From NCBI GenBank assembly GCA_963840855.1, contig CAWJBB010000013.1, forward strand, positions 1-22,314: a stretch of DNA of 22,314 nt. The letters are read 5' to 3'. The stretch comes from an uncultured delta proteobacterium. GTDB lineage: Bacteria; Desulfobacterota; Binatia; UBA9968. Below, piece after piece: positions 1,698 to 17,198 of this stretch. Both the position numbers and the translations under genes were made by a program. Within the stretch, counting starts at the first letter, position 1. Each line of letters opens with the position of its first letter. The notes beneath the pieces were generated by a model. The model ran no database searches, was not told the origin of the DNA, and saw only the letters and a list, made by a program, of their open reading frames with translations.

Positions 1698-3507
1698 CTA
1701 GCGAGAATCGCCGACAACTCCTACGGTGTCCGAAAGGGCGCGAAGCCGGGGTAGCAGGCCGACCTCGCAGGCTTTTATCTGCAGCCCCAGATACTTGGAG
1801 TAGATGCGGCACTGGGCCAAACTGCCGGCGATAAACCAAAGGCCCGGCTGCGCGGTGCGCGTGAACATGTTGCGCAACTCCTGTTCATCGCCGAATCCCC
1901 AGATGGGGCCAACGCGGGCAGCAACTTCGTCGCCAAACAGCTTGCGAACCAGATATTCCTGGCCTTTGTAGCCGGTCGCCAGCACGATCAGATCGGCGGC
2001 AAGCGTATCGCCGGTGCGCAGCCGCGCTCCCTCTGCGACGAACCCGGCTATATCGGAAAATTGCACCAGTCCTATCTCACCTTCAACGATCAAATCGGAA
2101 CAGCCGACATTGAAGTAGTAGCCGCCGCCGCGGGTGAGGTACTTGAACTGCCAGCCCGTTCCGTCTTCCCCGAAATCAAGCTTGAACCCCACGCGCTCCA
2201 GCCCATCGAGGAGTTCCCTGTCCAGATTCTTCGCTCGTTCGGTCAAGAGGATGTGGCTTTTCCTCGCCAGTGGAAGCGGGATGGACGTCGTGATGAGGTC
2301 GCAGTCCTCCAGAGGAGGTCCTTCGTCATACAACGCGTAGGGAAGTTGCGCGCTCGGCTCGATATTGACGATCAGGGTCGAACTCCGTTGAACGAGAGTC
2401 ACTTTTGCCCCGCTCGAGTACAGGTCCTGCGCAATATCATGGCCGCTGTTGCCGGTGCCGATGACAAGGACACGCTTGCCCTTCCATGCCTCGCCGTCAT
2501 CGTATTGGCTGGAGTGCAGAATCTTGCCGCCGAAGTTCCGCAACGTCGGGATATCGGGAAGGTTCGGAATGCCGCTGACTCCGGTGGCCATGACGACGTG
2601 TCGTGGACGCATCTCCCGCTTCGTGCCGTCCGCCCGACGTAGCACAACGGACCATCGCTCTTCTCTTTCGTTGTACGCGCCGCCCGCGAATTCCGTGGCC
2701 GTCCAGTAGTTGAGCTCCATGCCTTCCACATAGGCCTCGAACCAGCCGGCAAGTTTGTCTTTGGGAATGTAGGTCGGCCAACTCGGTGGAAAAGGCATGT
2801 ACGGAAGATGGTTGACCTGCACCTGGTTGTGCAGGGTCAGCGCGTGATAGCGATTGCGCCAGTTGTCACCGATGCGCTGTTCACGGTCCACGATCAAGCG
2901 TATCGACCTGCAATTGACGCAGGCGTGCGGCGATCGAAAGCCCGGCCTGCCCCCCGCCGACGACCAGCACAACCGGATCCCTATCGACATACTCGGCGGC
3001 GGATCTCCTGAGGTCGCGCCAGTTCGGGCCTCGAAAATCGCGCGAATATGACGTACCCCTGGGCCGCAATCTCCCGACCTGTTCCTCGAACCCCTTTATT
3101 TCGTCGAGCGCTGTGAGCAAGGTCCACGCTTTCGGCGTGTTGCCATCATTGGCATCGGGGGTCAGCCGTAGGACTCCGCTGCCGCGGCCTTCGGCAGTTT
3201 CAAACCTGAAGATCGCTTCGATCGCGTTGGTGCCCGCGCGCGTTACATAGCGCGGCGCCGTCCGATCGGGATCCGTCCTAAAACCAGTCGGATGGACTCG
3301 GCCGATATGCGCTTTCAGCTCTCTAGAAATAGCGTCCAAGCCGTTGACCGTCCTGATGTGCCAAGTCAGGGCAAGTACATCGCGCCAATGGCTATCAGGA
3401 TGAAACAGAGTCTTCAGCAGGACGTCGTCGCATCCCGCAAGAGCACTTTCGAACTGCGCAAGCCAATGGTCCGCAATCGTCGCGATGGTTTCTGTTCTAG
3501 CCAACAT
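1698..3507 (-). pseudogene. Flavin-containing monooxygenase (FMO/YUCCA-like NAD(P)/FAD oxidoreductase) with one +1 frameshift near 2896
   Basis: N-terminal WRDVLALTW domain and FAD motif GGGQAG in ORF 2881-3519. GDNWRNRY, HSSQY, GTGNSG and ATGY motifs in ORF 1698-2990. Removing one T in ACG-CTT-GAT restores ...VDTLIVDRE... It could be a sequencing indel. Confidence 0.88.
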
Positions 3508-3545
3508 TCGCGATCCCAAGCTATCGATCTGCGCCGCGTTTCCAG

Positions 3546-3716
3546 GCTCTACAACTCCAGAGATCAGCGGACCGCATGCACGGCTACGCGATCCGCCGCT
3601 TCGTTGATTGCGGTCAGAAGGCCCGTGACTTCCACGTCTGGCCGCTGGCGGAGAACGTGCAAAGTCCAGGCACTATCTTTGGCCGAATTCCTGGATAGCC
3701 GTACTCGGCACGACAT
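3546..3716 (-). pseudogene. N-terminal remnant of a Dph6-like (diphthine-ammonia ligase family) PP-loop ATPase
   Basis: ATG overlaps the stop of the upstream gene (TGATG). It translates as MSCRVRLSRNSAKDSAWTLHVLRQRPDVEVTGLLTAINEAADRVAVHAVR*SLEL*, a degraded version of LLSWSSGKDSAW.LH...V.GLLTT.NE..DRVAMH.VR with in-frame stops. Not in the ORF track. Confidence 0.8.
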
Positions 3717-4666
3717 CAGCTGGAGACTCCTGGAATTGGGTTGACCACCTCGGAAGCGATCACGCGAACAGGTGGTGGTAACCCGGCGGGCAGCGGATGC
3801 ACGATCGGGTCAAGAGTGTGCGCCAGGATCTCCAGGCTATCGACCAGGCGTGGACCTGGACGGCTGAAATATTGAGAGCCGTCTGTGACATATACCCGTC
3901 CCATCCGGACTGCAGGCAAGTCTTTCCAGCCAGGGACGGCTTGCAACGGTGGAACATCATCCATGGTTCGCGCGACGTCAAAGCCACAACAGGCAATGAA
4001 CACGACCTCCGGCTGCCATCCCATCACTTCCTCCCAGTGCAGCGTCCGCGATGGCCTGCCTTCCCGACCGAGGCCTTCGACGCCTCCTGCCAACCGGACC
4101 AGTTCGGGGCTCCAATGGCCGCAGGAGAATGGTGGATCGAGCCACTCCAGCAACGCCACACGCGGCCGGCGTCGCAATGAGATCGTGCGGGCCACGACGC
4201 CCTCGACGCGGGCCGCCAGCCCTTCAACGACTTCCTCTCCTTTCCGGCCCACGCCCACGGCCATCGCCACTTTGCGGATTGCGGCAAAGACCTCCGAAAG
4301 GGTTTGCGGTTCCAGGTTGATGACCTGAGGGCGACCAGGAAGCAAAGATGCAGCGGCCTGAACCTCATCTTCGGCCACCGCGCAAACTTCGCACAGCGCT
4401 TGCGTGACAATCAGGTCAGGCTGCAGTTCTTCCAACATGGGCAGGTCGAGGGAATAGAGGGCTCGATTCGTCCGCAGCCATTGCCGAACCTGACGATCGA
4501 TTTCGGCGCTCGGAACTTCGGCGGGGACCAGCGTGCGCGTGACCTTTGGCAGTCCTCTAACGAACGCCGGGAAATCGCACTCGTGGGTAACCCCCACCAA
4601 TTGATCTTCCAGTCCGAGAGTGCAGATCATCTCCGTTGCGCTGGGAAGCAGCGAAACGATCCTCAT
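3716..4666 (-). CDS. Cobalamin-binding protein, BtuF-like periplasmic-binding fold, no signal peptide
   Basis: MRIVSLLPSATE, GVTHECDFP, PDLIVTQALCEVCAV, LEWLDPP..GHW.PE and YFSRPGPRLVDSLEILA. RBS AGGAG. Confidence 0.88.
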   Translation of the reverse strand: MRIVSLLPSATEMICTLGLEDQLVGVTHECDFPAFVRGLPKVTRTLVPAEVPSAEIDRQVRQWLRTNRALYSLDLPMLEELQPDLIVTQALCEVCAVAEDEVQAAASLLPGRPQVINLEPQTLSEVFAAIRKVAMAVGVGRKGEEVVEGLAARVEGVVARTISLRRRPRVALLEWLDPPFSCGHWSPELVRLAGGVEGLGREGRPSRTLHWEEVMGWQPEVVFIACCGFDVARTMDDVPPLQAVPGWKDLPAVRMGRVYVTDGSQYFSRPGPRLVDSLEILAHTLDPIVHPLPAGLPPPVRVIASEVVNPIPGVSS

Positions 4667-4834: not shown

Positions 4835-5206
4835 TCACGCTGTTTTATAACCGTATGGACAATGTGTGCACCCATTTTGGCAACAGTGCCCGCGCTTCAA
4901 GAGATACCACGCCGTAAAAACAAATTTCCCATCTTCATTGAGGTAGTAGTCTATATCTTCCATGAGTGGACTGTTTGTGGCGTATTTCTTCGCGATGCTG
5001 GCAGCACCGTTTTCAGGAGTAATAGTTTGGAGATATCTGGCTATTTTTTCTTTTACAACCTCTTTCAAGCAAGCAGGGCAACGACACGATTGGCTGAAGT
5101 CAAGGGGCATGATCTGCGAATAGTCACAACACCAACACCTTTTATCCCCACTCTCCAGCCCACAGGTAAACAAGGTCGCACAGACTGGACAAGCTCTCAA
5201 CGGCAT
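4835..5206 (-). CDS. Cysteine-rich CWC domain fused to DUF5522
   Basis: CPVC..FTCG....CWC...C.CP.CL followed by DYY.NE.G..VFTAWYLLKRG.CC.NGC.HCPYG. RBS GAAGGAG. Confidence 0.85.
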   Translation of the reverse strand: MPLRACPVCATLFTCGLESGDKRCWCCDYSQIMPLDFSQSCRCPACLKEVVKEKIARYLQTITPENGAASIAKKYATNSPLMEDIDYYLNEDGKFVFTAWYLLKRGHCCQNGCTHCPYGYKTA

Positions 5207-5271
5207 CGCTGACTTCTCCTTCGATGCGTCAAGCACGAATTGGCCTCGGTCAGCCTTTCGGCCAGCGCCAT

Positions 5272-7149: not shown

Positions 7150-7219
7150 GTCTAACGATCAAGTATCAGCTGCCCGCCGCTGCTTTTGGCGACGGGTCGG
7201 GCTGCATGCGGTGTTCGGC
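7150..7219 (-). repeat. Integron attC site (70 bp) closing the TIR cassette
   Basis: Minus strand: GCCGAAC ACCGC ATGCAGC CCGAC CCGTCGC caaaa GCAGCGG CGGG CAGCTGAT ACTTGATC GTTAGAC. R''/R' and L''/L' with an extrahelical G. The TIR ORF reads into it (RPNTACSPT...AADT*). Confidence 0.85.
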
Positions 7220-7989
7220 CTTGCAGGCTCCACCGTTGGGCCATCTTCATGAATCGCTTTCGCATACATAGTTTCGATGAAAACGAAGAGCAAGTTGAAT
7301 TTACGGGCTAACTCTGTCTTTCCTTCTTTCATTTCGGCTTCGTCCGGTACGCGGTGGTATGTGTCTGCGCAGGCCCGGATGACCGCGAGGATGTTTGCAG
7401 CCGATCCAACATTTTTCTTTTTGCGACCGCGTTTTTTCCGTTCTTGCTCGACGAACTTCCAGATCCATTCGTGCCAACGATCAAGGAGGGCATTCGACTC
7501 AGCGACGGAGATGACGACACCGTGACCAAAAATGCGTGGGCCTTCGTCCGCCCACTCGATAGCAATACCGCTCCTGAAGTTCTCACGGGTAACGTTTAGA
7601 CCCATGGCGATGAGGAGTAAATCGCATTGTTTGTCAAACTGCTTCTCGTCTCGGAAATCCGCATAGAGTTTGTTGGCGAGGGAGTCGGGAATCGGGCAGT
7701 CATCTATCCGAACCGGGAACACCACGACTGCCTCGTTCTTGATCTCTTTCGTTACGGCGAGACTAAGTTCTTTCTTCACCCACGGTGACTTGATCGAGTT
7801 TTTCGAAATAATCGCGGCAATGAAATCAACCTCCTTGATGGCCTCAGTGATCTTATCAATAAGAGAGTCACCGATTCGGAGGTTCGCTTCGTCCAACCAA
7901 ATGGTTGCCCCAGATTCGGTCAGCCGATCAGCCAGCCGACGTACGAAAGGCTTGTCTGCTGAATTGTGGCTGAGGAAGATCGATGGCAT
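7159..7989 (-). CDS. TIR domain (TIR_2-type) protein with an unrecognised C-terminal domain
   Basis: IFLSHNSADKPFVRRLA..L...WLDE...GDSL...I...DF...IISKNS.KSPWVKKEL, with the catalytic Glu position retained, then LANKLYADF. RBS GGAGAG. Confidence 0.9.
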   Translation of the reverse strand: MPSIFLSHNSADKPFVRRLADRLTESGATIWLDEANLRIGDSLIDKITEAIKEVDFIAAIISKNSIKSPWVKKELSLAVTKEIKNEAVVVFPVRIDDCPIPDSLANKLYADFRDEKQFDKQCDLLLIAMGLNVTRENFRSGIAIEWADEGPRIFGHGVVISVAESNALLDRWHEWIWKFVEQERKKRGRKKKNVGSAANILAVIRACADTYHRVPDEAEMKEGKTELARKFNLLFVFIETMYAKAIHEDGPTVEPARPNTACSPTRRQKQRRAADT

Positions 7990-7991
7990 GG

Positions 7992-8312
7992 CTACTCGCT
8001 CTCTCCATGCGGCTGAGCAGTGGCGACAATCTTGCCCTCTTTGATCAAGTCGTCGACTCCGGACGTGACGGAGATGGCTAAGTCGAACGTCTCCCCGGCG
8101 TCGATCTCGCGCTTCACCAGCGGGGTCGGTGCGAATTTGGTCACGAGCTTGTGCCCGGTATCGCGTTCAAATTGCGTGCCTAGCTCCTTGAACGCCGCTG
8201 TCATGGGAGCCGCAGCTATGACCTTTACCTCAGCGGCCTCTGCGGCGAAGCCTTGCGACAACAGAATCATCGCCGCAATTCTTGCTGGTGCCGCAAGCGA
8301 TCTGGTCCTCAT
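7992..8312 (-). pseudogene. 5' third of a ModA-like (molybdate-type) substrate-binding protein, truncated
   Basis: Signal peptide followed by AEVKVIAAAPM.AA.KEL..QFER.TGHKL...F......V...I.AGE.FDL. It breaks off after GKIVA and runs into the TIR gene leader. Confidence 0.75.
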
Positions 8313-8388
8313 GGCTCCCTCCAATGATTGCGAAATGTCCGCTCATCGCGGGCGCCTGATCCGTGAGCCGCCGCGCGAGTACCTTGCA

Positions 8389-8868: not shown

Positions 8869-9267
8869 CTATCCGACGGTGAAATAGTCGACCATGATCT
8901 GTGGAATTTTCTGATAGTGATCATCGGTCGTGACAACGCGCAAGCCATATTCCATGGCGCTAGCCGCAATCCAGATATCATTGGTTGGTATCGGGGTTCC
9001 GGCCTGCCACAGTGAATTGAGAATGACCGCGTATCTTTCTGCCGTTTCTTCAGTGACATCCACAAGCCCCACGCGCGGAGATGCAAGGAACCGGCGCAGC
9101 TCATCTTCATTCTTTTTTCGTCGATTTCCTTTTATGAACCCCGCTGTTAGCTCGCCGATAACGATGGAAGTGAGAAAAATCTCCTCGTTCGATCGGACGG
9201 CGATTCGGATGTCTTCATGGCCCTTCATGAATGCCGAATACGCTGACGTATCCAACAGCAAACGCAC
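8869..9267 (-). CDS. vapC: Type II TA system PIN-domain toxin (VapC family)
   Basis: LLLDTSAYS, IVIGEL, G.PIPTNDIWIAASA, VVTTD.HY. The GTG start overlaps the antitoxin stop (TAGTG). Confidence 0.92.
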   Translation of the reverse strand: MRLLLDTSAYSAFMKGHEDIRIAVRSNEEIFLTSIVIGELTAGFIKGNRRKKNEDELRRFLASPRVGLVDVTEETAERYAVILNSLWQAGTPIPTNDIWIAASAMEYGLRVVTTDDHYQKIPQIMVDYFTVG

Positions 9268-9530
9268 TATTTCCACAACTCCGGGTCGATGCTCCGTTGA
9301 GCCGCCAATGTATTATCAAATTCGGCGGCCTCCTTCTTCGTCCACGACCCTGCCAGAGCATCGAGATCGTCATGTTCGCGTGTCTTGTTTTTAGTTTTCT
9401 TGCGTCCTTCGACTTTCCGTTCTAGCAAGCTGATGACCGCTTTATTGATACTGATGCGCTTGCGTTCGGCCTCTTTACGCACGGTCTTTTCCAACTCAGA
9501 GGGCAAATTTCTCAAAGTTATCGCTTTCAT
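9267..9530 (-). CDS. Ribbon-helix-helix antitoxin (FitA/VapB-like)
   Basis: MKAITLRNLP.EL...VRKEA....ISIN..VI.LL at the N-terminus and acidic DLDALAGSWT..EA.EFD...IDPELWK at the C-terminus. Coupled to vapC. Confidence 0.88.
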   Translation of the reverse strand: MKAITLRNLPSELEKTVRKEAERKRISINKAVISLLERKVEGRKKTKNKTREHDDLDALAGSWTKKEAAEFDNTLAAQRSIDPELWK

Positions 9531-9798: not shown

Positions 9799-10034
9799 GG
9801 GTCAAGTCCGCTCTTAGCTTATTAGCCTATTCTTCATCTCTGCCTAGTTGTCGGAACGCAAGTCGATAAACACGCTTGTGACATTTATTGTCCAAGAAAA
9901 TATTCCCGCGGGAATGGCTGCGGTTCATTAAATGACAGTAACCCACGGGGTGTACGATGCGCAATGAATGAGCCATGAAAACCGCCTCGTCGTACTTGCA
10001 GGACATGTTAAAAGCTAAGAGCGGACTTGACGCC
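9799..10034 (-). mobile_element. MITE copy 1 derived from a RAYT/Y1 (HUH) transposase element
   Basis: TIRs GGGTCAAGTCCGCTCTTAGCTT ... AAGCTAAGAGCGGACTTGACGCC. The internal minus-strand remnant at 9827-9976, MAHSLRIVHPVGYCHLMNRSHSRGNIFLD, resembles MARPLRIEYPG.YYHVMNRGN.R..IF.D. Confidence 0.85.
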
Positions 10035-11015: not shown

Positions 11016-11250
11016 GGGGTCAAGTCCGCTCTTAGCTTATTAGCCTATTCTTCATCTCTGCCTAGTTGTCGGAACGTAAGTCGATAAACACGCTTGTGAC
11101 ATTTATTGTCCAAGAAAATATTCCCGCGGGAATGGCTGCGGTTCATTAAATGACAGTAACCCACGGGGTGTACGATGCGCAATGAATGAGCGATGAAAAC
11201 CGCCTCGTCGCACTTGCAAGACATGTTAAGAGCTAAGAGCGGGTGACCCC
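11016..11250 (-). mobile_element. MITE copy 2 (direct repeat of 9799-10034)
   Basis: GGGGTCAAGTCCGCTCTTAGCTT ... AGCTAAGAGCGGGTGACCCC. About 5 substitutions in the body relative to copy 1, including ATG to ATC at the remnant start. Confidence 0.85.
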
Positions 11251-11258
11251 TTTAATTG

Positions 11259-11507
11259 CTCATCGGTTAAATAGGGCAACAGGTTGTAGCCGTCGATATG
11301 ATTCTTGTACGTCCGTCCGATCGCCTGATAACCCTTCTTGGCCTTTGCAACGATGTCGGGTTCACCGGCGATCGCCATGAAGGTCGGGAACCAGTCATGA
11401 TGCTGAACGATCTCCCTTGAGATCTGACCGGGCTTGATTTTGCCGGGCCATCGCACGAGCAGTGGAATGCGGAAAGCACCTTCCCAGTTAGTGTTCTTCT
11501 CACTGCG
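11259..11507 (-). pseudogene. Internal fragment of an arylsulfatase
   Basis: RSEKNTNWEGAFRIPLLVRWPGKI.PG...HHDWFPTF...HIDGYNLLPYLT. Both termini are missing, and the 3' side ends at MITE 2. Confidence 0.88.
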
Positions 11508-11857
11508 ACTTCGAGGTCGGAGATGGCGACAGCGATTTTCTCGCCCTCCCTCTTCCCCACCAAATTTACACACTGAGTGATACATACACCAGCACGAGTG
11601 AGATTGACAACGTGCAATTCAATCGTGCATATTGGAAAAGCTTAATCTCGGATCTACGTCAGGACGCGCTAGTTCAGGCGATTCTAAAAAGCGCTTGGAG
11701 AAGCGACGTCTGTCAAAGACTAGGCCGATGGCTGCCGGAAATATGCTGTTGCCCGCATGCGCTCGCTTTTAAACGAGGGGTAAGGGCTTTAGCGGTACTT
11801 ACCGACCGAGTTGCAGACAGCTAAGCAAACGGCGAACGACCAAGAAAGGAACTGAAT

Positions 11858-12811
11858 ATGGAGAGACGGTTCTTAGATTTTTTGGAGCTGGCGCCGCGCA
11901 GCCCAAAGCCGCGGACTCAAGGTATAACCATCTTTGCCGAGTACGGGACAATTACCTGGACAAAGGAGATGCTGGAGACCTGGGGAGAGTATGTAGATGT
12001 TGTCAAATATACTCCAACTCATCTGCACGCGCCCTGGCGCGCTATCGAACAGAAAGTAAAATTGTATCGGGATCACCAGGTCGGCGTGGCAGCGGACGAT
12101 CCGATGTTCGCGATCGCTTACTATCAGGATAAGGCCGAACAGTTCCTGCGCACAATCCGCGATATTGGCTTTACGCACGCGCAAATCGACACCCAGCACA
12201 TCAATCTAGGTGAGAGGGCAGACCTGGAAAAACTTAATCAGGATTGGCAAAAGTACATGAATTTAGCGCTCGAGTTGGGGCTCAAGGTCGATGGCGAGGT
12301 TGGCCAAAAGACACCCGATGGCGATCTGGCCCGCTCCGGCAAAGGACGGCTAAACGTTGAAGCGGTCGTGGGAGAGATGAAGCGGCTCCTCAAGGCTGGT
12401 TGCGAGCATGTATATCTGGAAAGCCGCGTTATCCGGGAGGTTATCGGCAACTGGGGAGAAATTGAATCCGGAGCGGAGCAGATTCGACAGATCGTAGACG
12501 GAGTAGGAGAAAGCAACATCATCATCGAAATCAGCGGTCAGCTGCCGTTCGATACCCGGATGTGCCACCGTTTTTGGGCAGTGCGAAACTTCGGCCCGGA
12601 AGTCAATATGTCCGGTGGGGGATCGATCGAAGACGCACGTTACGTCGAAGCGATCCGTCGCGGCAACACTTTTGTCAACGGGCCGAGTCGCTCATCAAGC
12701 AAGCTATGGATAAAGTCCTTGGCTAAAAACGGCGGCAAAGCTGCTGCGCAGTGGTGGAAAGAGGAATATCCGATCGATCCTGGCGTCGTTGTCGGCAGAA
12801 CATTGAGCTAA
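11858..12811 (+). CDS. Divergent phosphosulfolactate synthase (ComA) family protein
   Basis: R..KPR..G.T, GEYVDVVK, GLKV..EVGQK, V.LESR, FGPEVN and VEAIRRG motifs. RBS GAAAGGA. Confidence 0.8.
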   Translation: MERRFLDFLELAPRSPKPRTQGITIFAEYGTITWTKEMLETWGEYVDVVKYTPTHLHAPWRAIEQKVKLYRDHQVGVAADDPMFAIAYYQDKAEQFLRTIRDIGFTHAQIDTQHINLGERADLEKLNQDWQKYMNLALELGLKVDGEVGQKTPDGDLARSGKGRLNVEAVVGEMKRLLKAGCEHVYLESRVIREVIGNWGEIESGAEQIRQIVDGVGESNIIIEISGQLPFDTRMCHRFWAVRNFGPEVNMSGGGSIEDARYVEAIRRGNTFVNGPSRSSSKLWIKSLAKNGGKAAAQWWKEEYPIDPGVVVGRTLS

Positions 12812-12824
12812 GGTGGGGTAAGTC

Positions 12825-13700
12825 GTGTTGCTAGTCTTGCGCGCTCAAGCGTTTAGCTTTCTTCCTTTTTATATAGCTGAAGAGAAAGGGTTCTTTAGCG
12901 CACAAGAGGTGCGCATTCGGTATGTTCATTCGCATGACGAGAAAAAGAGAATGGTCCAACTCGTGTTGGAACGTGAGGTAGCATTCTACGCGACGATAAG
13001 CATCGCGGTAGAGGCAGCCATACGTGGCTGGGGCGGCCTGAAGGCGCTATGTGCGACGAGCGTATCAAGGTATCCCTGCGCGGCGCGGAGCGAAATTCAA
13101 TCACTAGCAGATCTGAAGGGGAAGAAAGTGATGGTCGGCGGCGGCAGGTCAATGAGCGAGGTTCGATGGTTATGCCATCGATACGGCTGGGAGCTTGGCA
13201 AAGACCTTCACGTCGTGACCGGTGACTTGTCCGCGCGGGCGAAGGTCTTTTCCGATCCGAGCTTTTCGGCAGTGTTTGGGCGGCCGCAATACCTGTTCTG
13301 GCTCAAGAAGGGAGGCTTCCATTTGTTGCCTTACCCAGATGCGGACCGCGCCTGGCCCGAAGGGGGTATTACGACCAGCGTTGATTTGATCGAGAATAAT
13401 CCCGAGGCAGTACAGAAAGTTGTGAATGCAGTGGTCCAGGCGACCGAGTACGTGAAACACAATAGAGATGCGGCAATCGAGCTCGCCATGAAGAACGTTC
13501 CTGACCTGAACCGGGACGCTGCCGAAGGGAACTACGATGTTCTCCGAGACTGGTATTCTTCAGAGGTTAGCGAGTCAGCTATCGCGCATCTGACCGAGGT
13601 ACACAACATTGCGACAAAAAACTCCCGCGCCGTAAAATTGGCCGAGGTAGCCGATCTGTCATTCCTAAGAAGGGCTATGCTTTCAACGGCCAGAAAGTAA
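12825..13700 (+). CDS. NMT1/SsuA/TauA-like substrate-binding-fold protein without signal peptide
   Basis: FLPFYIAEEKGFF, IQSLADLKGKKV, NPEAVQKVV.A...AT.Y and ADLSFL. An in-frame TAA two codons upstream of the GTG rules out an N-terminal extension. Confidence 0.82.
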   Translation: MLLVLRAQAFSFLPFYIAEEKGFFSAQEVRIRYVHSHDEKKRMVQLVLEREVAFYATISIAVEAAIRGWGGLKALCATSVSRYPCAARSEIQSLADLKGKKVMVGGGRSMSEVRWLCHRYGWELGKDLHVVTGDLSARAKVFSDPSFSAVFGRPQYLFWLKKGGFHLLPYPDADRAWPEGGITTSVDLIENNPEAVQKVVNAVVQATEYVKHNRDAAIELAMKNVPDLNRDAAEGNYDVLRDWYSSEVSESAIAHLTEVHNIATKNSRAVKLAEVADLSFLRRAMLSTARK

Positions 13701-13836
13701 TGAACTATGTTCGTTTGACAACAAGAGTATGGGTGCTAGAGGGTTCGCTCGGCGGCGCGGATGCCCGCCTCAGCGGCGCGAAAGGAAGCAAAAGATGCGC
13801 ACCATAAGAGAAGGTTGAAAGCGCGGCTCTACTGAT

Positions 13837-13950
13837 CTAGCCCGGTTTATTCGTAAGATTGCGCCCGAGGAGCAAGCCTCTTCGGTCGCGGCCAAGATAG
13901 TCTAGGGGCCGGAGTCCCGGGTTTCGGATTTATCTTAACGCAAACTCTAG
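13837..13950 (+). mobile_element. CTAG-bounded MITE / IS remnant A
   Basis: Left end TAGCCCGGTTTATTCGTAAGATTGCGCCCGAGG (13838-13870) is identical to 16921-16953. The right end ATCTTAACGCAAACTCTAG is an imperfect inverted copy. Confidence 0.6.
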
Positions 13951-14099
13951 ACGCGAGACACGAGATTCATTGCTTTTATACTGTGGTGCGGTTTTCCAAA
14001 GACATGAATAATGCGGACTAGACACCTGAACTGGAGCAGCTCTATTCGTCGAGAGGCGCGTTCGGACGCAGTATCGCCTTACTCGAAGGTGAGTCGTGC

Positions 14100-15851
14100 A
14101 TGAATAAAACGATAGCGAACTCAGCCGACCCTTCATTGCCGCACAGCATCCGCAAAAAGCAGGAAGGCAATGCGATAGGTTTCAGCCGAAGGAGCTTTCT
14201 GCACCAGACGTTAACGGGAACGTTGGCGGCGACAGCCTTACCCATACTGGGGTTTGCTGCGGTTCAAAGGGCTCGATCTACACTCGTGGTTATCGGCGAT
14301 TCAAGCGAGAAGGGTTTCTTCATTGGTCGCGCCGATGCCGAACCCACGAACATGGTCCATACAGGACTGGCACGAAAAAATTCCAGCATTGGCAAGATGG
14401 TTCCCGAATTGGCAGCGGAGCTACCTTCGGTTAGCAGAGGCACGCTGAAAAGAAACTCCGACGGAAGCTTCACGACGATTTACAAGCTAAGATCGGGCTT
14501 GACGTGGCACGACGGAAAAGCGCTGACGGCGCGAGACTTTGTCCTGGGCTGGAAAGTTATGAACGATCCTAAGATTCCGTGGCGTGGCAGCGCCGGTACC
14601 AGGCTTGCTGTGAATATGGCCGCGCCGGATGATCTGACGCTTTCGATCCTTTGGAAGAAGCTGCACTGGAGTTCTGCGGCGCTCGGCGTAGTCGACCTAT
14701 GTCCGTTGCCGAGTCATCTGCTCGAACAAAGCTATGTCGCAGGTAATTATGACGCATTTGTCAATCAGGCATACTGGAACCGTCGCTTCGTAGGAGCAGG
14801 GCCGTACAAGCTGGTCGAATGGGGGCATGACGATCAATTAACACTCGAGGCGTTCCCGAATTACGTGCACGGTAAACCAAAAGTAGACCGGATCGTATAC
14901 CGGCACATCCCCGACCAGAACTCTGCGTTAGCGAGCGTTCTCTCGAATCAAATCGATGTTTCGTTGAATTCGGCGCTTGGGTTTCAACAAGCAGCGGTCG
15001 CTCAGACAGAATGGGAATCCAAACGGCAGGGGAAAGTCCACTTTTCACCCAACAGCTGGGTTGGCGTGGTGCCCGATCCTTCAAATCCGTGGTTTCGCGA
15101 CGTCCGAATACGGCAAGCTCTTCTTCATGCGATCGATAGGGACAAAATAATGCAGACACTCTTTAGCGGCAAGGTTCAGCCGGCGCATTTTATGATGTCT
15201 CCAAAAGACGCGGCATTCAAGGAAGCTGAAGTTCGGGCGGTAAAATATGAATTCAACCCGAACAAAGCAAGGAAGCTCTTCTCCGAGGCCGGCTGGGAAT
15301 CAGGACCTGACGGTATTTTAAGGAATCCAAAAGGCGAGCGCTTCGTCGTTGATGGCATAACCGACGCCGGCAATAGAGAACTCGAGCAAGTTCAGGTCGT
15401 CACTGTGTCATACTGGAAGGCCATAGGCATTGACGTGCAGATAAAGAACCTTCCGCGCAGAGTCCTGGGGGATGTGAAGTACCGTGCCAACCCCGGAACC
15501 CTTAGATGGCGGGAAAGAAACAACAGTGACGAGTATTATTATACCCAACTGAACAGCTCCAATATACCCAAAGAAGAAGATAAGTATGCCGGCCAAAATT
15601 TCGGTGGATGGAACAACGCGAGAGCGGACCAGATCACTGAGCGGCTTGAGGAGACGTTGCTGGAGCCCGGAGCCAACGCTCTCAAAGCCGAGCTGATGCA
15701 GCTGTTCACCCAGGATTTGCCGTGGCTGCCGCTTTATTATCTAACCGAGCATGTGACTGTCCGCGCCAACGTGCATGGCGTCGAGCCACGCCAGGCCGCT
15801 GGAGTTCGAAATGCTACTGTATGGAATATCCACATGTGGGAGAAAGGATAA
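14100..15851 (+). CDS. Peptide/nickel ABC transporter substrate-binding protein (family 5), Tat-exported
   Basis: Twin-arginine SRRSFL signal, P.LA..LPS, WHDGK.LTA.DF, GAGPYKL.EW, RIRQAL.HAIDR and DLPWLPLYY. Confidence 0.93.
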   Translation: MNKTIANSADPSLPHSIRKKQEGNAIGFSRRSFLHQTLTGTLAATALPILGFAAVQRARSTLVVIGDSSEKGFFIGRADAEPTNMVHTGLARKNSSIGKMVPELAAELPSVSRGTLKRNSDGSFTTIYKLRSGLTWHDGKALTARDFVLGWKVMNDPKIPWRGSAGTRLAVNMAAPDDLTLSILWKKLHWSSAALGVVDLCPLPSHLLEQSYVAGNYDAFVNQAYWNRRFVGAGPYKLVEWGHDDQLTLEAFPNYVHGKPKVDRIVYRHIPDQNSALASVLSNQIDVSLNSALGFQQAAVAQTEWESKRQGKVHFSPNSWVGVVPDPSNPWFRDVRIRQALLHAIDRDKIMQTLFSGKVQPAHFMMSPKDAAFKEAEVRAVKYEFNPNKARKLFSEAGWESGPDGILRNPKGERFVVDGITDAGNRELEQVQVVTVSYWKAIGIDVQIKNLPRRVLGDVKYRANPGTLRWRERNNSDEYYYTQLNSSNIPKEEDKYAGQNFGGWNNARADQITERLEETLLEPGANALKAELMQLFTQDLPWLPLYYLTEHVTVRANVHGVEPRQAAGVRNATVWNIHMWEKG

Positions 15852-15857
15852 ATCTTT

Positions 15858-16898
15858 ATGAGCAAGAAACCGCTGCGATTCGGTCCGGCGTGCTATCATG
15901 TCATACATCTTTCCCTGCCTGTCGTCGCGATGGAGATGAACTTTCTATACGACGAAGGCCTTCGCGATGCCGATGGCAATGAAACGTACGAGCTTGTCCC
16001 CCATGGACTGGCGCCATTCAGTTTCGAGAAGCTCACACTTATTCAAGCGATGAAGGACAAGGACGTTGACATCGCGACGGATGTACAACCTAGGACGGTA
16101 TTTTATCAGAACAGTCAGGGCGAAGATCTTTGCGTGATCGCGGGTTGGCGTAACAACCGGCCCGGATCCTTCATTGCCCGAGCGGGAATTCGCACTTTTC
16201 AGGATCTCAGGGGTAAGCGCATCGGAATCAGTGACATCAACGACAATCATCATCTGCAGCTAAGTTACTGGCTTCATCAGGCCGGGGTGAACCCACATAC
16301 CGAAATAAAATGGGTGACTGGATTTGGTCCCGAAATGAGGCTCGATCCTCTGCTTAACGGCGAATTCGACGCGGGTCTGTTTTCCTATCCTGATCACATA
16401 GAAAAGCTCCGTCAGTCGGGCTTTGAAGTTGTAAAGGATTTTTCTGGATCTTACCCCGAAGGACGTCCGGATCGAGTCATAGCCGCGCCCGCCCGAGTGT
16501 TGGAGGAGCGCCGAGATGAGGTAAAGGCATTTCTGCGAGCGATTCTTAGATCCTACTGGTTCGTGCGCGACCGACAGAATTTCCGGTATCTGCAGAACCT
16601 GGACCGTCGATTGCGCCGGCATAGCCCCAATTATCACGAGCGGTTGCGGCCTTTGCGTGTGCGATCCCCCGAGTGGCTTGAAAAGCATCAGCCGTTTCCT
16701 ATGGATGGGCTCGCGACAGGCCTGGAACAATACGCAAAGGAAATGTTGGAGTTAGGAGAGATCAAAGCGGAAGTTGATTATAGTAAAGCATCTCGTCAGG
16801 ATTTGATGCGAGAAGCCTATGCGGAATTGATCGCTCGCCCAGAGCTCCAAGAGGAGGTGCAGCGTGCCCGTGAGGTGGAAAAACGCGTAGGCTTTTAA
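15858..16898 (+). CDS. NMT1/THI5-like substrate-binding-fold protein without signal peptide
   Basis: I.TF.DLRGKRIGIS, L..AGVNP..EI.WV, L.NGEFDAG and EVKAFLRA. The upstream gene's TAA is in frame three codons before the ATG. Confidence 0.8.
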   Translation: MSKKPLRFGPACYHVIHLSLPVVAMEMNFLYDEGLRDADGNETYELVPHGLAPFSFEKLTLIQAMKDKDVDIATDVQPRTVFYQNSQGEDLCVIAGWRNNRPGSFIARAGIRTFQDLRGKRIGISDINDNHHLQLSYWLHQAGVNPHTEIKWVTGFGPEMRLDPLLNGEFDAGLFSYPDHIEKLRQSGFEVVKDFSGSYPEGRPDRVIAAPARVLEERRDEVKAFLRAILRSYWFVRDRQNFRYLQNLDRRLRRHSPNYHERLRPLRVRSPEWLEKHQPFPMDGLATGLEQYAKEMLELGEIKAEVDYSKASRQDLMREAYAELIARPELQEEVQRAREVEKRVGF

Positions 16899-16919: not shown

Positions 16920-17101
16920 GTAGCCCGGTTTATTCGTAAGATTGCGCCCGAGGTTGGACGATGACCGGGGGACGACTCGATGAGGAAACCACCGAAGTCT
17001 TTGCCGGGTTGCCCGACCCGCCGACTGGTCGGGACGATCCCCAGTCTCCTCTCCATTTCATGCAGAACCGAGAATCTTAAAAGTGTCGCAAAACTGGCTA
17101 G
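16920..17101 (+). mobile_element. Internally deleted IS remnant / MITE B carrying a DDE transposase N-terminal relic
   Basis: Same 33-bp left end as 13838. Right end AATCTTAAAAGTGTCGCAAAACTGGCTAG. The internal mini-ORF MTGGRLDEETTEVFAGLPDPPTGR...FMQNRES recalls F..LPD.RTG...FFMQS.SFL of ISNCY/ISAs1-like transposases. Confidence 0.6.
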
Positions 17102-17108
17102 TTGAAGA

Positions 17109-17181
<73 letters not shown>

Positions 17182-17198
17182 ACAAGTTTGAAATCTGA

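What the first reader, a model, noticed from the sequence alone, without database searches (positions are those of the whole stretch)
11858..16898. Divergent ComA-like enzyme clustered with signal-less NMT1/THI5-fold proteins and an orphan Tat SBP, without any permease
Seen: the comA-like gene is 13 bp from a binding-fold gene with no signal peptide. A Tat-exported family-5 SBP is 6 bp from a second signal-less binding-fold gene. In both signal-less genes an in-frame stop just upstream excludes a missed leader. No permease, ATPase, comB or comC is present. Known: ComA adds sulfite to PEP in coenzyme M and sulfolactate synthesis, and periplasmic-binding folds have been recruited as cytoplasmic enzymes (THI5, MqnA, MqnD). 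Inference: this may be an undescribed metabolic or sensing module in which cytoplasmic SBP-fold proteins act as enzymes or ligand carriers for a ComA-like reaction.
Basis: partly seen in the sequence, partly recalled or inferred. Interest (0 to 1): 0.7.

Follow-up and report, generated by a model that had tools for sequence, protein, structure and literature searches.

The report
Rebuilt ComA with leaderless binding proteins
Four genes encode an exported binding protein, two binding-protein look-alikes with no export signal, and a relative of a sulfite-adding enzyme whose active-site loops are rebuilt; the same gene families recur together in uncultured soil bacteria and likely form an undescribed uptake-and-breakdown pathway.

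Summary
The genome is from Binatia.

ORF1 has the ComA fold (Z 26 to 1qwg) and keeps the core Lys and acidic residues. It replaces the near-universal GG..E and E-x-S motifs with DDP and Q-x-D, and comB was not found, so it is unlikely to make phosphosulfolactate.

Both NMT1-fold families lack leaders in over 110 homologues each. The linkage is real but loose: an ORF4-like gene (invariant CYHxxH) lies within 6 kb in 24 of 51 distinct loci, against 1.2% background, in Binatia and Alphaproteobacteria. The three closest genomic orthologues lack both partners. ORF4-like genes occur in 66 of 90 family genomes, usually beside a GlmL-type ATPase rather than ComA.

'No permease' is ordinary. Only 29 of 172 NMT1-like genes in this genome have one nearby, homologous loci often include one, and a matching dppBC lies on contig C40.

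Best reading: a reshuffled piece of an import-and-catabolism module, with a lyase/hydratase-type ComA variant and cytoplasmic binding-fold enzymes or carriers. The substrate is unknown. This scan reported the system before on other DNA (e1-5086993, e1-6642220).

The parts
11858..12811 (+). ORF1: ComA-fold TIM barrel (317 aa) of a distinct clade. Keeps D47, K50, E147, G149, K151, E188, E224, N250, E264, R267; has D80-D81-P82 and Q109-x-D111 in place of the family's GG..E and E-x-S motifs; about 45-aa C-terminal extension with invariant W284, W299, W300, E302
12825..13700 (+). ORF2: leaderless NMT1/SsuA-type binding-fold protein (291 aa); invariant C85, R88, G105, G107, S109, R138, R153, W159, W177 (Arg-rich, predicted anion-binding)
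13701..14099 (.). 399-bp intergenic gap with a 33-nt sequence repeated exactly at 16921-16953, a terminator-like hairpin (13909-13927) and a promoter-like match (13955-13982); may split the cluster into two bicistrons
14100..15851 (+). ORF3: family-5 (Opp/Dpp-type) solute-binding protein with a twin-arginine leader (583 aa); no permease on this contig, likely served by dppBC on contig C40
15858..16898 (+). ORF4: leaderless NMT1/SsuA-fold protein (346 aa); invariant C12-Y13-H14-x-x-H17, E57, D75, G96-W97-R98-N99, R206, Y233-W234, R237
17107..17182 (-). tRNA-Phe(GAA) bounding the cluster on the right; housekeeping-type genes (gshB-, rsmE-, prmA-like, named from recall) follow

Best explanation
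The four genes are a reshuffled piece of a gene set conserved in Binatia and some Alphaproteobacteria that likely imports a small organic acid and processes it in the cytoplasm. ORF3 is predicted to be Tat-exported and to deliver solute to a DppBC permease encoded elsewhere in the genome (inferred). ORF1 keeps the ComA barrel, its lysine and its acidic core but has swapped its glycine-rich loops for acidic residues (shown). It would run ComA-type enolate chemistry, addition to or elimination from an alpha,beta-unsaturated carboxylate (hydratase or lyase), on a non-phosphorylated substrate rather than PEP plus sulfite (inferred). ORF2 and ORF4 lack export signals (shown by sequence), so they likely stay inside the cell. 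ORF4, with its invariant Cys/His motif, is likely a catalyst or metal-dependent ligand handler; ORF2, with an Arg-rich set, likely binds an anionic intermediate (inferred). They are interchangeable partners of several catabolic clusters rather than fixed subunits of ORF1. The substrate is not identified; neighbours point to aromatic or poly-carboxylates, possibly sulfonated.
For: Fold: VIA Z 26.0, rmsd 2.2 over 243 residues to 1qwg. Motifs: among 109 other ComA-superfamily sequences, G at position 81 in 108, E at 109 in 108, G at 80 in 100, E at 85 in 100, S at 111 in 100; ORF1 has D81, Q109, D80, A85, D111. D81, P82 and Q109 are invariant in 48 clade members. PF04029 (comB) was not found in the 94%-complete genome, while the control rang in 7 of 14. 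Linkage: ORF4-like within 6 kb in 24 of 51 distinct loci (14 of 29 at 80% clustering) against 57 of 4606 genes and 5 of 199 NMT1-like genes in this genome; ORF2-like 7 of 51 against 34 of 4609. At least four gene orders occur in two phyla. ComA-linked ORF4-like genes fall in several supported clades of a quick tree. Transport: L108 has ComA-like > SBP5 (70% to ORF3) > dppB (78% to C40 dppB); L037 has SBP5 > ComA-like > dppB > dppC (79% and 87% to C40). Neighbours of ComA-like paralogues are SBPs, permeases, MmgE/PrpD, FAD-dependent oxidoreductases, Rieske oxygenases, UbiD, amidohydrolases, PGA_cap and TctA (121 of about 160 neighbouring ORFs scanned). ComA-family genes also sit beside MmgE/PrpD in Haloferax and beside MmgE/PrpD plus PrpF in Bradyrhizobium, and beside a SAR11 TTT transporter (PMC11796062, passages).
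Against: No activity or ligand is shown. The three closest genomic orthologues of ORF1 (84-88%; L032-L034) have neither ORF2- nor ORF4-like genes within about 8 kb, and 27 of 51 loci show no ORF4-like gene (many are short). Neighbouring enzymes differ from locus to locus, so no single pathway emerges. The MmgE/PrpD link belongs mostly to more distant ComA clades: it appears in only 2 of the 67 ORF1-clade loci (L073, L084). Loss of two conserved glutamates could also mean loss of catalysis, as may hold for plant HSA32, whose function is unclear (bioRxiv 10.1101/2024.10.15.618377, passages). Loci are related by descent, so the enrichment overstates independence.
Confidence: 0.5

Rival explanations
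1. The leaderless proteins are cytoplasmic sensors or regulators of the neighbouring importers, like the NrtA-fold C-terminal regulatory domain of CmpC/NrtC or NasS (recalled), and ORF1 is an unrelated enzyme or a non-catalytic partner in the same operons.
For: The best sequence hits of ORF4 in the PDB are the CmpC regulatory domain (E 1.3e-7 with the family profile; Z 20.0). ORF2-like genes usually sit right beside an exported SBP. One locus holds ORF4-like > SBP > ORF2-like > SBP > ATPase > permease (L192).
Against: ORF4-like genes have an invariant Cys-Tyr-His-x-x-His and about 25 invariant residues across 40-90% identity, which looks more catalytic. Their commonest partner is a GlmL-type ATPase, not a transporter ATPase or an antiterminator. 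The CmpC match is tied with SsuA, ThiY-type and NrtA folds.
Confidence: 0.2
2. ORF4-family proteins are one half of an ATP-dependent two-part system with a GlmL/MutL-type ASKHA ATPase (PF13941), either an ATP-driven enzyme or a carrier that the ATPase loads or unloads. The window's copy would use the single ATPase gene on C41, and ORF1 would act up- or downstream.
For: The ATPase lies beside an ORF4-like gene in 16 of 20 chosen loci. It is mostly single-copy in 58 of 90 genomes; by my reading of the coordinates, 50 of those 58 have a listed ORF4-family match on the same contig within about 5 kb. Four of 51 ComA-clade loci hold all three genes.
Against: The window's own ORF4 subclade (11 rows, support 100) has no GlmL neighbour in any row. 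ORF4-like copies far outnumber the ATPase (up to 20 against 1). No binding test was run for this pair.
Confidence: 0.15
3. Sulfite release and capture: ORF4 is a DszB-like cysteine desulfinase that frees sulfite from an aryl sulfinate or sulfonate, and ORF1 adds that sulfite to an acceptor.
For: DszB shares the fold (2de3, Z 16.0, rmsd 4.9, 276 aligned). The aligned ranges start at model 5 and chain 20, which puts C12 on DszB Cys27 if the first eight residues have no gap. DszB uses Cys27, His60 and Arg70 and releases sulfite (PMC12168087, passages). Sulfonate-binding SsuA is the top fold match (Z 21.2, tied with three others).
Against: DszB ranks 16th, well below non-enzymatic SBPs. No residue-level alignment was available for His60 or Arg70. 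ORF1's glycine-rich loops are replaced by aspartates, which argues against binding an extra anion (inference). ORF4-like genes occur without this ComA clade in most genomes.
Confidence: 0.1
4. ORF1 is an ordinary phosphosulfolactate synthase for coenzyme M or sulfolactate synthesis, or the adjacency is chance in a genome full of binding proteins.
For: Public records name ORF1 homologues 'phosphosulfolactate synthase'. The genome has at least 150 PF09084 matches and four Ldh_2 (ComC-family) genes elsewhere.
Against: TIGR03849 score 75 against a cut-off of 280; family motifs lost; comB not found and no xcbCDE-type neighbours, unlike Nocardioides. The linkage is 47% against 1.2-2.5% background.
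Confidence: 0.05

Closest known systems
Phosphosulfolactate synthase ComA / XcbB / B. subtilis PSL synthase (PDB 1qwg, 1u83; PF02679)
   Same: Same barrel (Z 26.0, 21% identity); equivalents of M. jannaschii D40, K43, E133, K137, E168, E205, N224, E237 and R240 are kept.
   Different: GWGT, G74-G75-T76..E79, E103-x-S105 and E171 are replaced; about 45-aa Trp-rich C-terminal extension; no comB or xcbCDE; sits among importers and catabolic genes.
Cytoplasmic enzymes of the type II binding-protein fold: THI5, MqnA, MqnD, DszB, 4,5-dihydroxyphthalate decarboxylase
   Same: Same structural cluster (Z 13.6-17.8 for ORF4); no export signal; a cysteine after the first strand as in DszB (offset inference only).
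   Different: At most 18% identity to any match. ORF4's CYHxxH and GWRN motifs and ORF2's Arg-rich set match none of the catalytic motifs I know (recalled); no CCCxC motif of THI5 (motif recalled).
SsuA/TauA/NrtA/ThiY solute-binding proteins and the CmpC/NrtC C-terminal regulatory domain
   Same: Highest fold scores for ORF4 (Z 20-21) and best profile hits.
   Different: No signal peptide, no SsuC-type permease alongside, and not fused to an ATPase here.
Opp/Dpp/AppA family-5 SBPs (PDB 2d5w, 1xoc)
   Same: ORF3 matches at E 6e-38 and 3e-36; its subfamily sits with dppBC in this genome and in relatives.
   Different: Twin-arginine leader; below every NCBIfam equivalog cut-off; orphan at this locus; ligand unknown.

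Membership tests
ComA / phosphosulfolactate synthase | PF02679 match and ComA barrel fold | tested here: met
   109 bits against 25.2; Z 26.0, rmsd 2.2, 243 aligned to 1qwg
ComA / phosphosulfolactate synthase | TIGR03849 equivalog cut-off (archaeal model) | tested here: not met
   75.4 against 280 bits
ComA / phosphosulfolactate synthase | Lys137 equivalent and acidic core (catalytic role of Lys137 recalled; Wise 2003 not held) | tested here: met
   K151, E147, D47 invariant; K50, E188, E224 at 90% or more in 48 sequences
ComA / phosphosulfolactate synthase | G74-G75..E79 loop and E103-x-S105 conserved across the superfamily | tested here: not met
   D80-D81..A85 and Q109-x-D111 in ORF1; G81 and E109 each in 108 of 109 other sequences
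ComA / phosphosulfolactate synthase | Downstream comB or xcbCDE | tested here: not met
   PF04029 not found in G000, 94% complete; none among 121 scanned neighbours; contrast Nocardioides
ComA / phosphosulfolactate synthase | PEP + sulfite to phosphosulfolactate activity | not testable with these tools
   needs an assay
ComA / phosphosulfolactate synthase | Homotrimer | not tested
NMT1/SsuA-type ABC solute-binding protein (ORF2, ORF4) | Type II binding-protein fold | tested here: met
   PF09084 51.9 and 60.6 bits; ORF4 model Z 21.2 to 3uif; ORF2 by profile only
NMT1/SsuA-type ABC solute-binding protein (ORF2, ORF4) | Export signal or lipoprotein leader | tested here: not met
   in-frame stops; 0 of 117 and 1 (marginal) of 112 homologues with a hydrophobic leader; heuristic, not SignalP
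THI5 HMP synthase | CCCxC motif and PLP-lysine/histidine pair (recalled) | tested here: not met
   no CCCxC in ORF2 or ORF4; no invariant Lys in either family
DszB desulfinase (ORF4) | Cys27 after the first strand | tested here: inconclusive
   range offset 5 to 20 places C12 at 27 only if ungapped
DszB desulfinase (ORF4) | His60 and Arg70 | not testable with these tools
   no residue-level alignment to 2de3 was returned; residues from PMC12168087
CmpC/NrtC regulatory domain or NasS-type sensor | Cytoplasmic NrtA-fold domain fused to an ABC ATPase or paired with an ANTAR regulator (recalled) | tested here: inconclusive
   fold and location fit; stand-alone here; longer fused forms were not searched; no ANTAR among scanned neighbours
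Family-5 SBP exported by Tat (ORF3) | PF00496 domain, twin-arginine motif, TatC in the genome | tested here: met
   223 bits; RRxF-type motif in all five ComA-linked homologues listed; TatC present
Family-5 SBP exported by Tat (ORF3) | Cognate permease in the same operon | tested here: not met
   none on C13; present beside homologues L108 and L037, with a 78-87% identical pair on C40

The most novel reading that the evidence does not exclude
Binatia run an undescribed catabolic chemistry built from binding-protein folds turned enzymes: a Cys/His ORF4-family catalyst, powered in many loci by a GlmL-type ATPase that has left glutamate mutase, works with a ComA barrel repurposed as a lyase. Together they strip sulfur or other substituents from imported aromatic acids. 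This would give new reactions to three families at once (PF09084, PF02679, PF13941).
Probability: 0.2. Interest if true: 0.8.

Novelty: new variant of a known kind. Interest (0 to 1): 0.55.

Why it matters
Databases label these genes 'phosphosulfolactate synthase (CoM biosynthesis protein A)' and 'ABC-type nitrate/sulfonate/bicarbonate substrate-binding protein'. Both labels are probably wrong, so claims of coenzyme M synthesis or sulfonate uptake in Binatia that rest on them are unsafe. The ORF1 clade is the only one among the 116 ComA-superfamily sequences aligned to have replaced the family's core loop and glutamate, which makes it a clean test of how this barrel gains new chemistry. The ORF4 family is present in 66 of 90 genomes of a widespread soil and sediment lineage, often in many copies, so whatever it does is central to their metabolism. 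Expressing these proteins makes the question directly testable.

Tried and rejected
Complex prediction of ORF1 with ORF4 gave no answer (score 0.00) and is not used either way. The ESM Atlas did not hold ORF4 or its homologue. Four metatranscriptome runs gave only short contigs at depth about 2-5 over all four genes and also over intergenic DNA; this cannot be told from DNA carry-over, so expression is not shown. The first genome-wide leader screen was faulty because the profile included the signal peptide; it was redone. A Mantel test on 15 ORF1-ORF4 pairs gave rho 0.59, p 0.0008, but shared descent explains that, so it is not counted as co-evolution. The tree is the quick version with a midpoint root, so no order of events is claimed. 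Identical 'longest contig' lengths for ORF1, ORF2 and ORF4 homologues (5448, 4970, 13473) hint at further co-located copies but are unverified and not counted. A TctA-ComA fusion (P0508) is a single-member cluster and may be an artefact. No copy of the tRNA-Phe end was found elsewhere on C13, so island integration is not shown, although the cluster has lower GC3 (0.56-0.61) than the genes beyond the tRNA (0.66-0.74). Plasmid searches found only distant matches (below 30%). Ten literature searches returned no paper describing this clade or module. The Binatota survey PMC8262859 has no occurrence of 'coenzyme M', 'phosphosulfolactate' or 'ABC transporter' in its main text; its supplements were not read and may bear on this. 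The library lacks most subscription journals.
Full report
Setting. The window is the whole of contig C13 of a 7.1-Mb genome, 94% complete. Named relatives of its proteins are Candidatus Binatia or 'Deltaproteobacteria' MAGs. The genome has at least 150 PF09084 (NMT1) matches, 136 PF00528 permease-domain matches and one ComA-family gene. Binding-protein genes are therefore common neighbours of anything here, and the linkage needed a control.

Observation. All four ORFs, both spacings (13 and 6 bp) and both in-frame upstream stops are as described. ORF3 has a twin-arginine motif, shared by the five ComA-linked homologues listed, and TatC is present. ORF2 and ORF4 start at the first strand of the fold. 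None of 117 ORF2 homologues has an N-terminal extension of 10 residues or more. Twelve of 112 ORF4 homologues do, all polar except one marginal case. The same heuristic finds leaders on 137 of 176 NMT1-like ORFs of the genome; 39 are flagged leaderless, of which about 28 look real by eye, in several subfamilies. Leaderless binding-fold proteins are thus a recurring class in this organism.

ORF1. The AlphaFold model (pLDDT 91.5) matches M. jannaschii ComA (Foldseek E 2.5e-14; Z 26.0). Mapped through the HMMER alignment, it keeps D40, K43, E133, K137, E168, E205, N224, E237 and R240 (as D47, K50, E147, K151, E188, E224, N250, E264, R267). It loses GWGT, G74-G75-T76, E79, E103, S105 and E171. I aligned 106 representatives of 240-330 aa from the 150 listed, three plasmid proteins and seven clade members. 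Among the 109 sequences outside those seven, position 81 is G in 108 and position 109 is E in 108; the one exception shown is a fragment of ORF1's own clade. In ORF1's clade D81, P82 and Q109 are invariant over 48 sequences at 50-90% identity, so the site is rebuilt and held, not decayed. That the glycine loops bind phosphate and sulfite and that Lys137 is catalytic is my recall of Wise 2003, which was not held. The ComA, XcbB, ComB and ComC reactions come from passages of PMC9457059. comB was not found in the genome, and the Nocardioides gene in its xcb-type cluster keeps the standard motifs.

Linkage. I collected 77 loci with an ORF1-clade gene (and the window), which collapse to 51 at 95% identity. 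An ORF4-like gene lies within 6 kb in 24 of 51 (17 of 33 with at least 500 bases on both sides), mostly as the next gene. An ORF2-like gene is present in 7 of 51, a close ORF3-like gene in 4 of 51, a permease in 12 of 51 (7 of 16 with 3-kb flanks), a GlmL-type ATPase in 4 and a Rieske oxygenase in 5. Background in this genome is 1.2% of genes (2.5% of NMT1-like genes) for ORF4-like and 0.7% for ORF2-like. Recurrent orders are: ORF4 > ComA > SBP > fused permease (> GlmL > ATPase), in Binatia and Alphaproteobacteria; ComA > ORF4 > SBP > ORF2; ORF2 > ComA > SBP5; ComA > SBP5 > dppB; and dehydrogenase > SBP > beta-propeller > ComA > Rieske. Searching from the other side, ORF4's own subclade (E 1e-125 or better) occurs in 4 of 90 family genomes, each time beside a ComA-clade gene or, in G012, a C-terminal remnant of one.

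Results against a fixed module. The three closest genomic orthologues of ORF1 (84-88%) have neither leaderless partner within about 8 kb. ORF4-family genes are in 66 of 90 genomes, ORF2-like in 11, the ORF3 subfamily in 35, and the ORF1 clade in 8. The commonest neighbour of ORF4-like genes is a PF13941 GlmL/MutL-type ATPase (16 of 20 loci chosen as top hits on long contigs; 58 of 90 genomes carry it), often with TctC, CoA-transferases and crotonases. These loci are related by descent, so the counts are not independent events.

The missing permease. Only 29 of 172 assessable NMT1-like genes in this genome have a permease within 4 kb. For ORF3, the homologue in L108 (70%) is followed by a dppB 78% identical to the one on C40, and the dppB and dppC behind the ComA-like gene in L037 are 79% and 87% identical to the C40 pair. 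Use of that permease in trans is the simplest reading; it is inferred, not shown.

ORF4 and ORF2. The ORF4 model (pLDDT 93.8) belongs to the SsuA/NrtA/ThiY cluster (Z 20-21), with MqnD (17.8), THI5 (17.2), 4,5-dihydroxyphthalate decarboxylase (16.1), DszB (16.0) and MqnA (13.6-15.6) below. Eighty-three family members share C12, Y13, H14, H17, E57, D75, GWRN 96-99, R206, Y233, W234 and R237. The CYH lies in the loop after strand 1, which lines the cleft in this fold (general knowledge; no coordinates were available to me). ORF2's 40-member alignment fixes C85, R88, G105, G107, S109, R138, R153, W159 and W177; its best PDB hits are Candida CA3427, a Bordetella protein and THI5. The fold alone does not separate enzyme, carrier and sensor.

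Mechanism. Shown: anatomy, lack of leaders by sequence, rebuilt ComA site, non-random but loose linkage, permeases in homologous loci. Inferred: cytoplasmic location, import through DppBC in trans, and enolate-type addition or elimination by ORF1 on a non-phosphorylated unsaturated acid. The chemistry rests on the retained Lys and acidic core and on neighbours that act on such acids: MmgE/PrpD, PrpF, FAD oxidoreductases, UbiD and TctA/TctC, beside mostly more distant ComA clades. A SAR11 study likewise notes two 'phosphosulfolactate synthases' flanking a TTT transporter and proposes a catabolic role from annotation alone (PMC11796062, passages). I put the import-and-catabolism reading at 0.5, sensor at 0.2, ATPase-coupled system at 0.15, sulfite release and capture at 0.1, and canonical ComA or chance at 0.05.

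Novelty. Cytoplasmic binding-fold enzymes and ComA-fold proteins of unclear function (HSA32, passages) are known kinds; these families and their association were not found in ten literature searches (listed under Tried and rejected). Other papers seen: PMC12168087, PMC13397543 and PMC8262859 (passages); PMC7683729 (listing only). This scan noted the same ComA-ORF4 operon and the ORF4-GlmL pairing on other genomes, and a CWHxxH sister family in this one. Verdict: real, conserved, misannotated, mechanism open; interest 0.55.

Noticed in passing
G000:C41:280652-284421; loci L119-L138: ORF4-family genes pair with a mostly single-copy GlmL/MutL-type ATPase (PF13941) in most Binatia genomes; no glutamate mutase genes were recognised in the 20 loci read.
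   Followed up: partly
G012, G019, G035, G003 (L040-L051): ComA-family paralogue expansions (up to 15 matches in one genome) in at least two further clades, beside MmgE/PrpD, PGA_cap metallophosphoesterase-like genes, FAD oxidoreductases, LysR regulators and many SBPs.
   Followed up: partly
window 9799-10034 and 11017-11242: Two 98% identical copies of a 226-nt element with 20-nt terminal inverted repeats (MITE-like) flanking an ACT-domain gene; partial relatives on C72 and C50.
   Followed up: partly
window 13838-13870 and 16921-16953: An exact 33-nt direct repeat downstream of each gene pair; the left copy is part of a longer repeat also on C40 and C30.
   Followed up: partly
window 3716-4666 (-): A third leaderless binding-fold protein (Peripla_BP_2, BtuF-like), downstream of a small cysteine-rich ORF at 4835-5236.
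   Followed up: no
window 7159-7989 (-) and 8869-9530 (-): A TIR_2-domain protein and a PIN-type toxin-antitoxin-like pair (named from recall of the sequence).
   Followed up: no
window 1698-3519 (-), 7992-8324 (-), 11226-11585 (-): Apparent broken genes: a flavin monooxygenase-like gene split over two frames (recalled family), a truncated ModA-like SBP and a sulfatase C-terminal fragment.
   Followed up: no
G000:C79:137689-148099 and G012:C41:23728-27136: Remnants of the ComA > ORF4 > SBP > ORF2 operon: an ORF4 C-terminal fragment followed by SBP and repeated ORF2-like copies in this genome, and a ComA C-terminal remnant before an intact ORF4-like gene in G012.
   Followed up: partly
P0508, P0501, P0514: ComA-domain fusions: to TctA (single-member cluster), to an adenylation-carrier protein, and to an ATP-grasp domain.
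   Followed up: no
L202 (Bradyrhizobium plasmid), L203 (Haloferax plasmid): Cultured organisms with a divergent 'phosphosulfolactate synthase' directly after MmgE/PrpD (and PrpF), offering tractable models for non-canonical ComA chemistry.
   Followed up: partly
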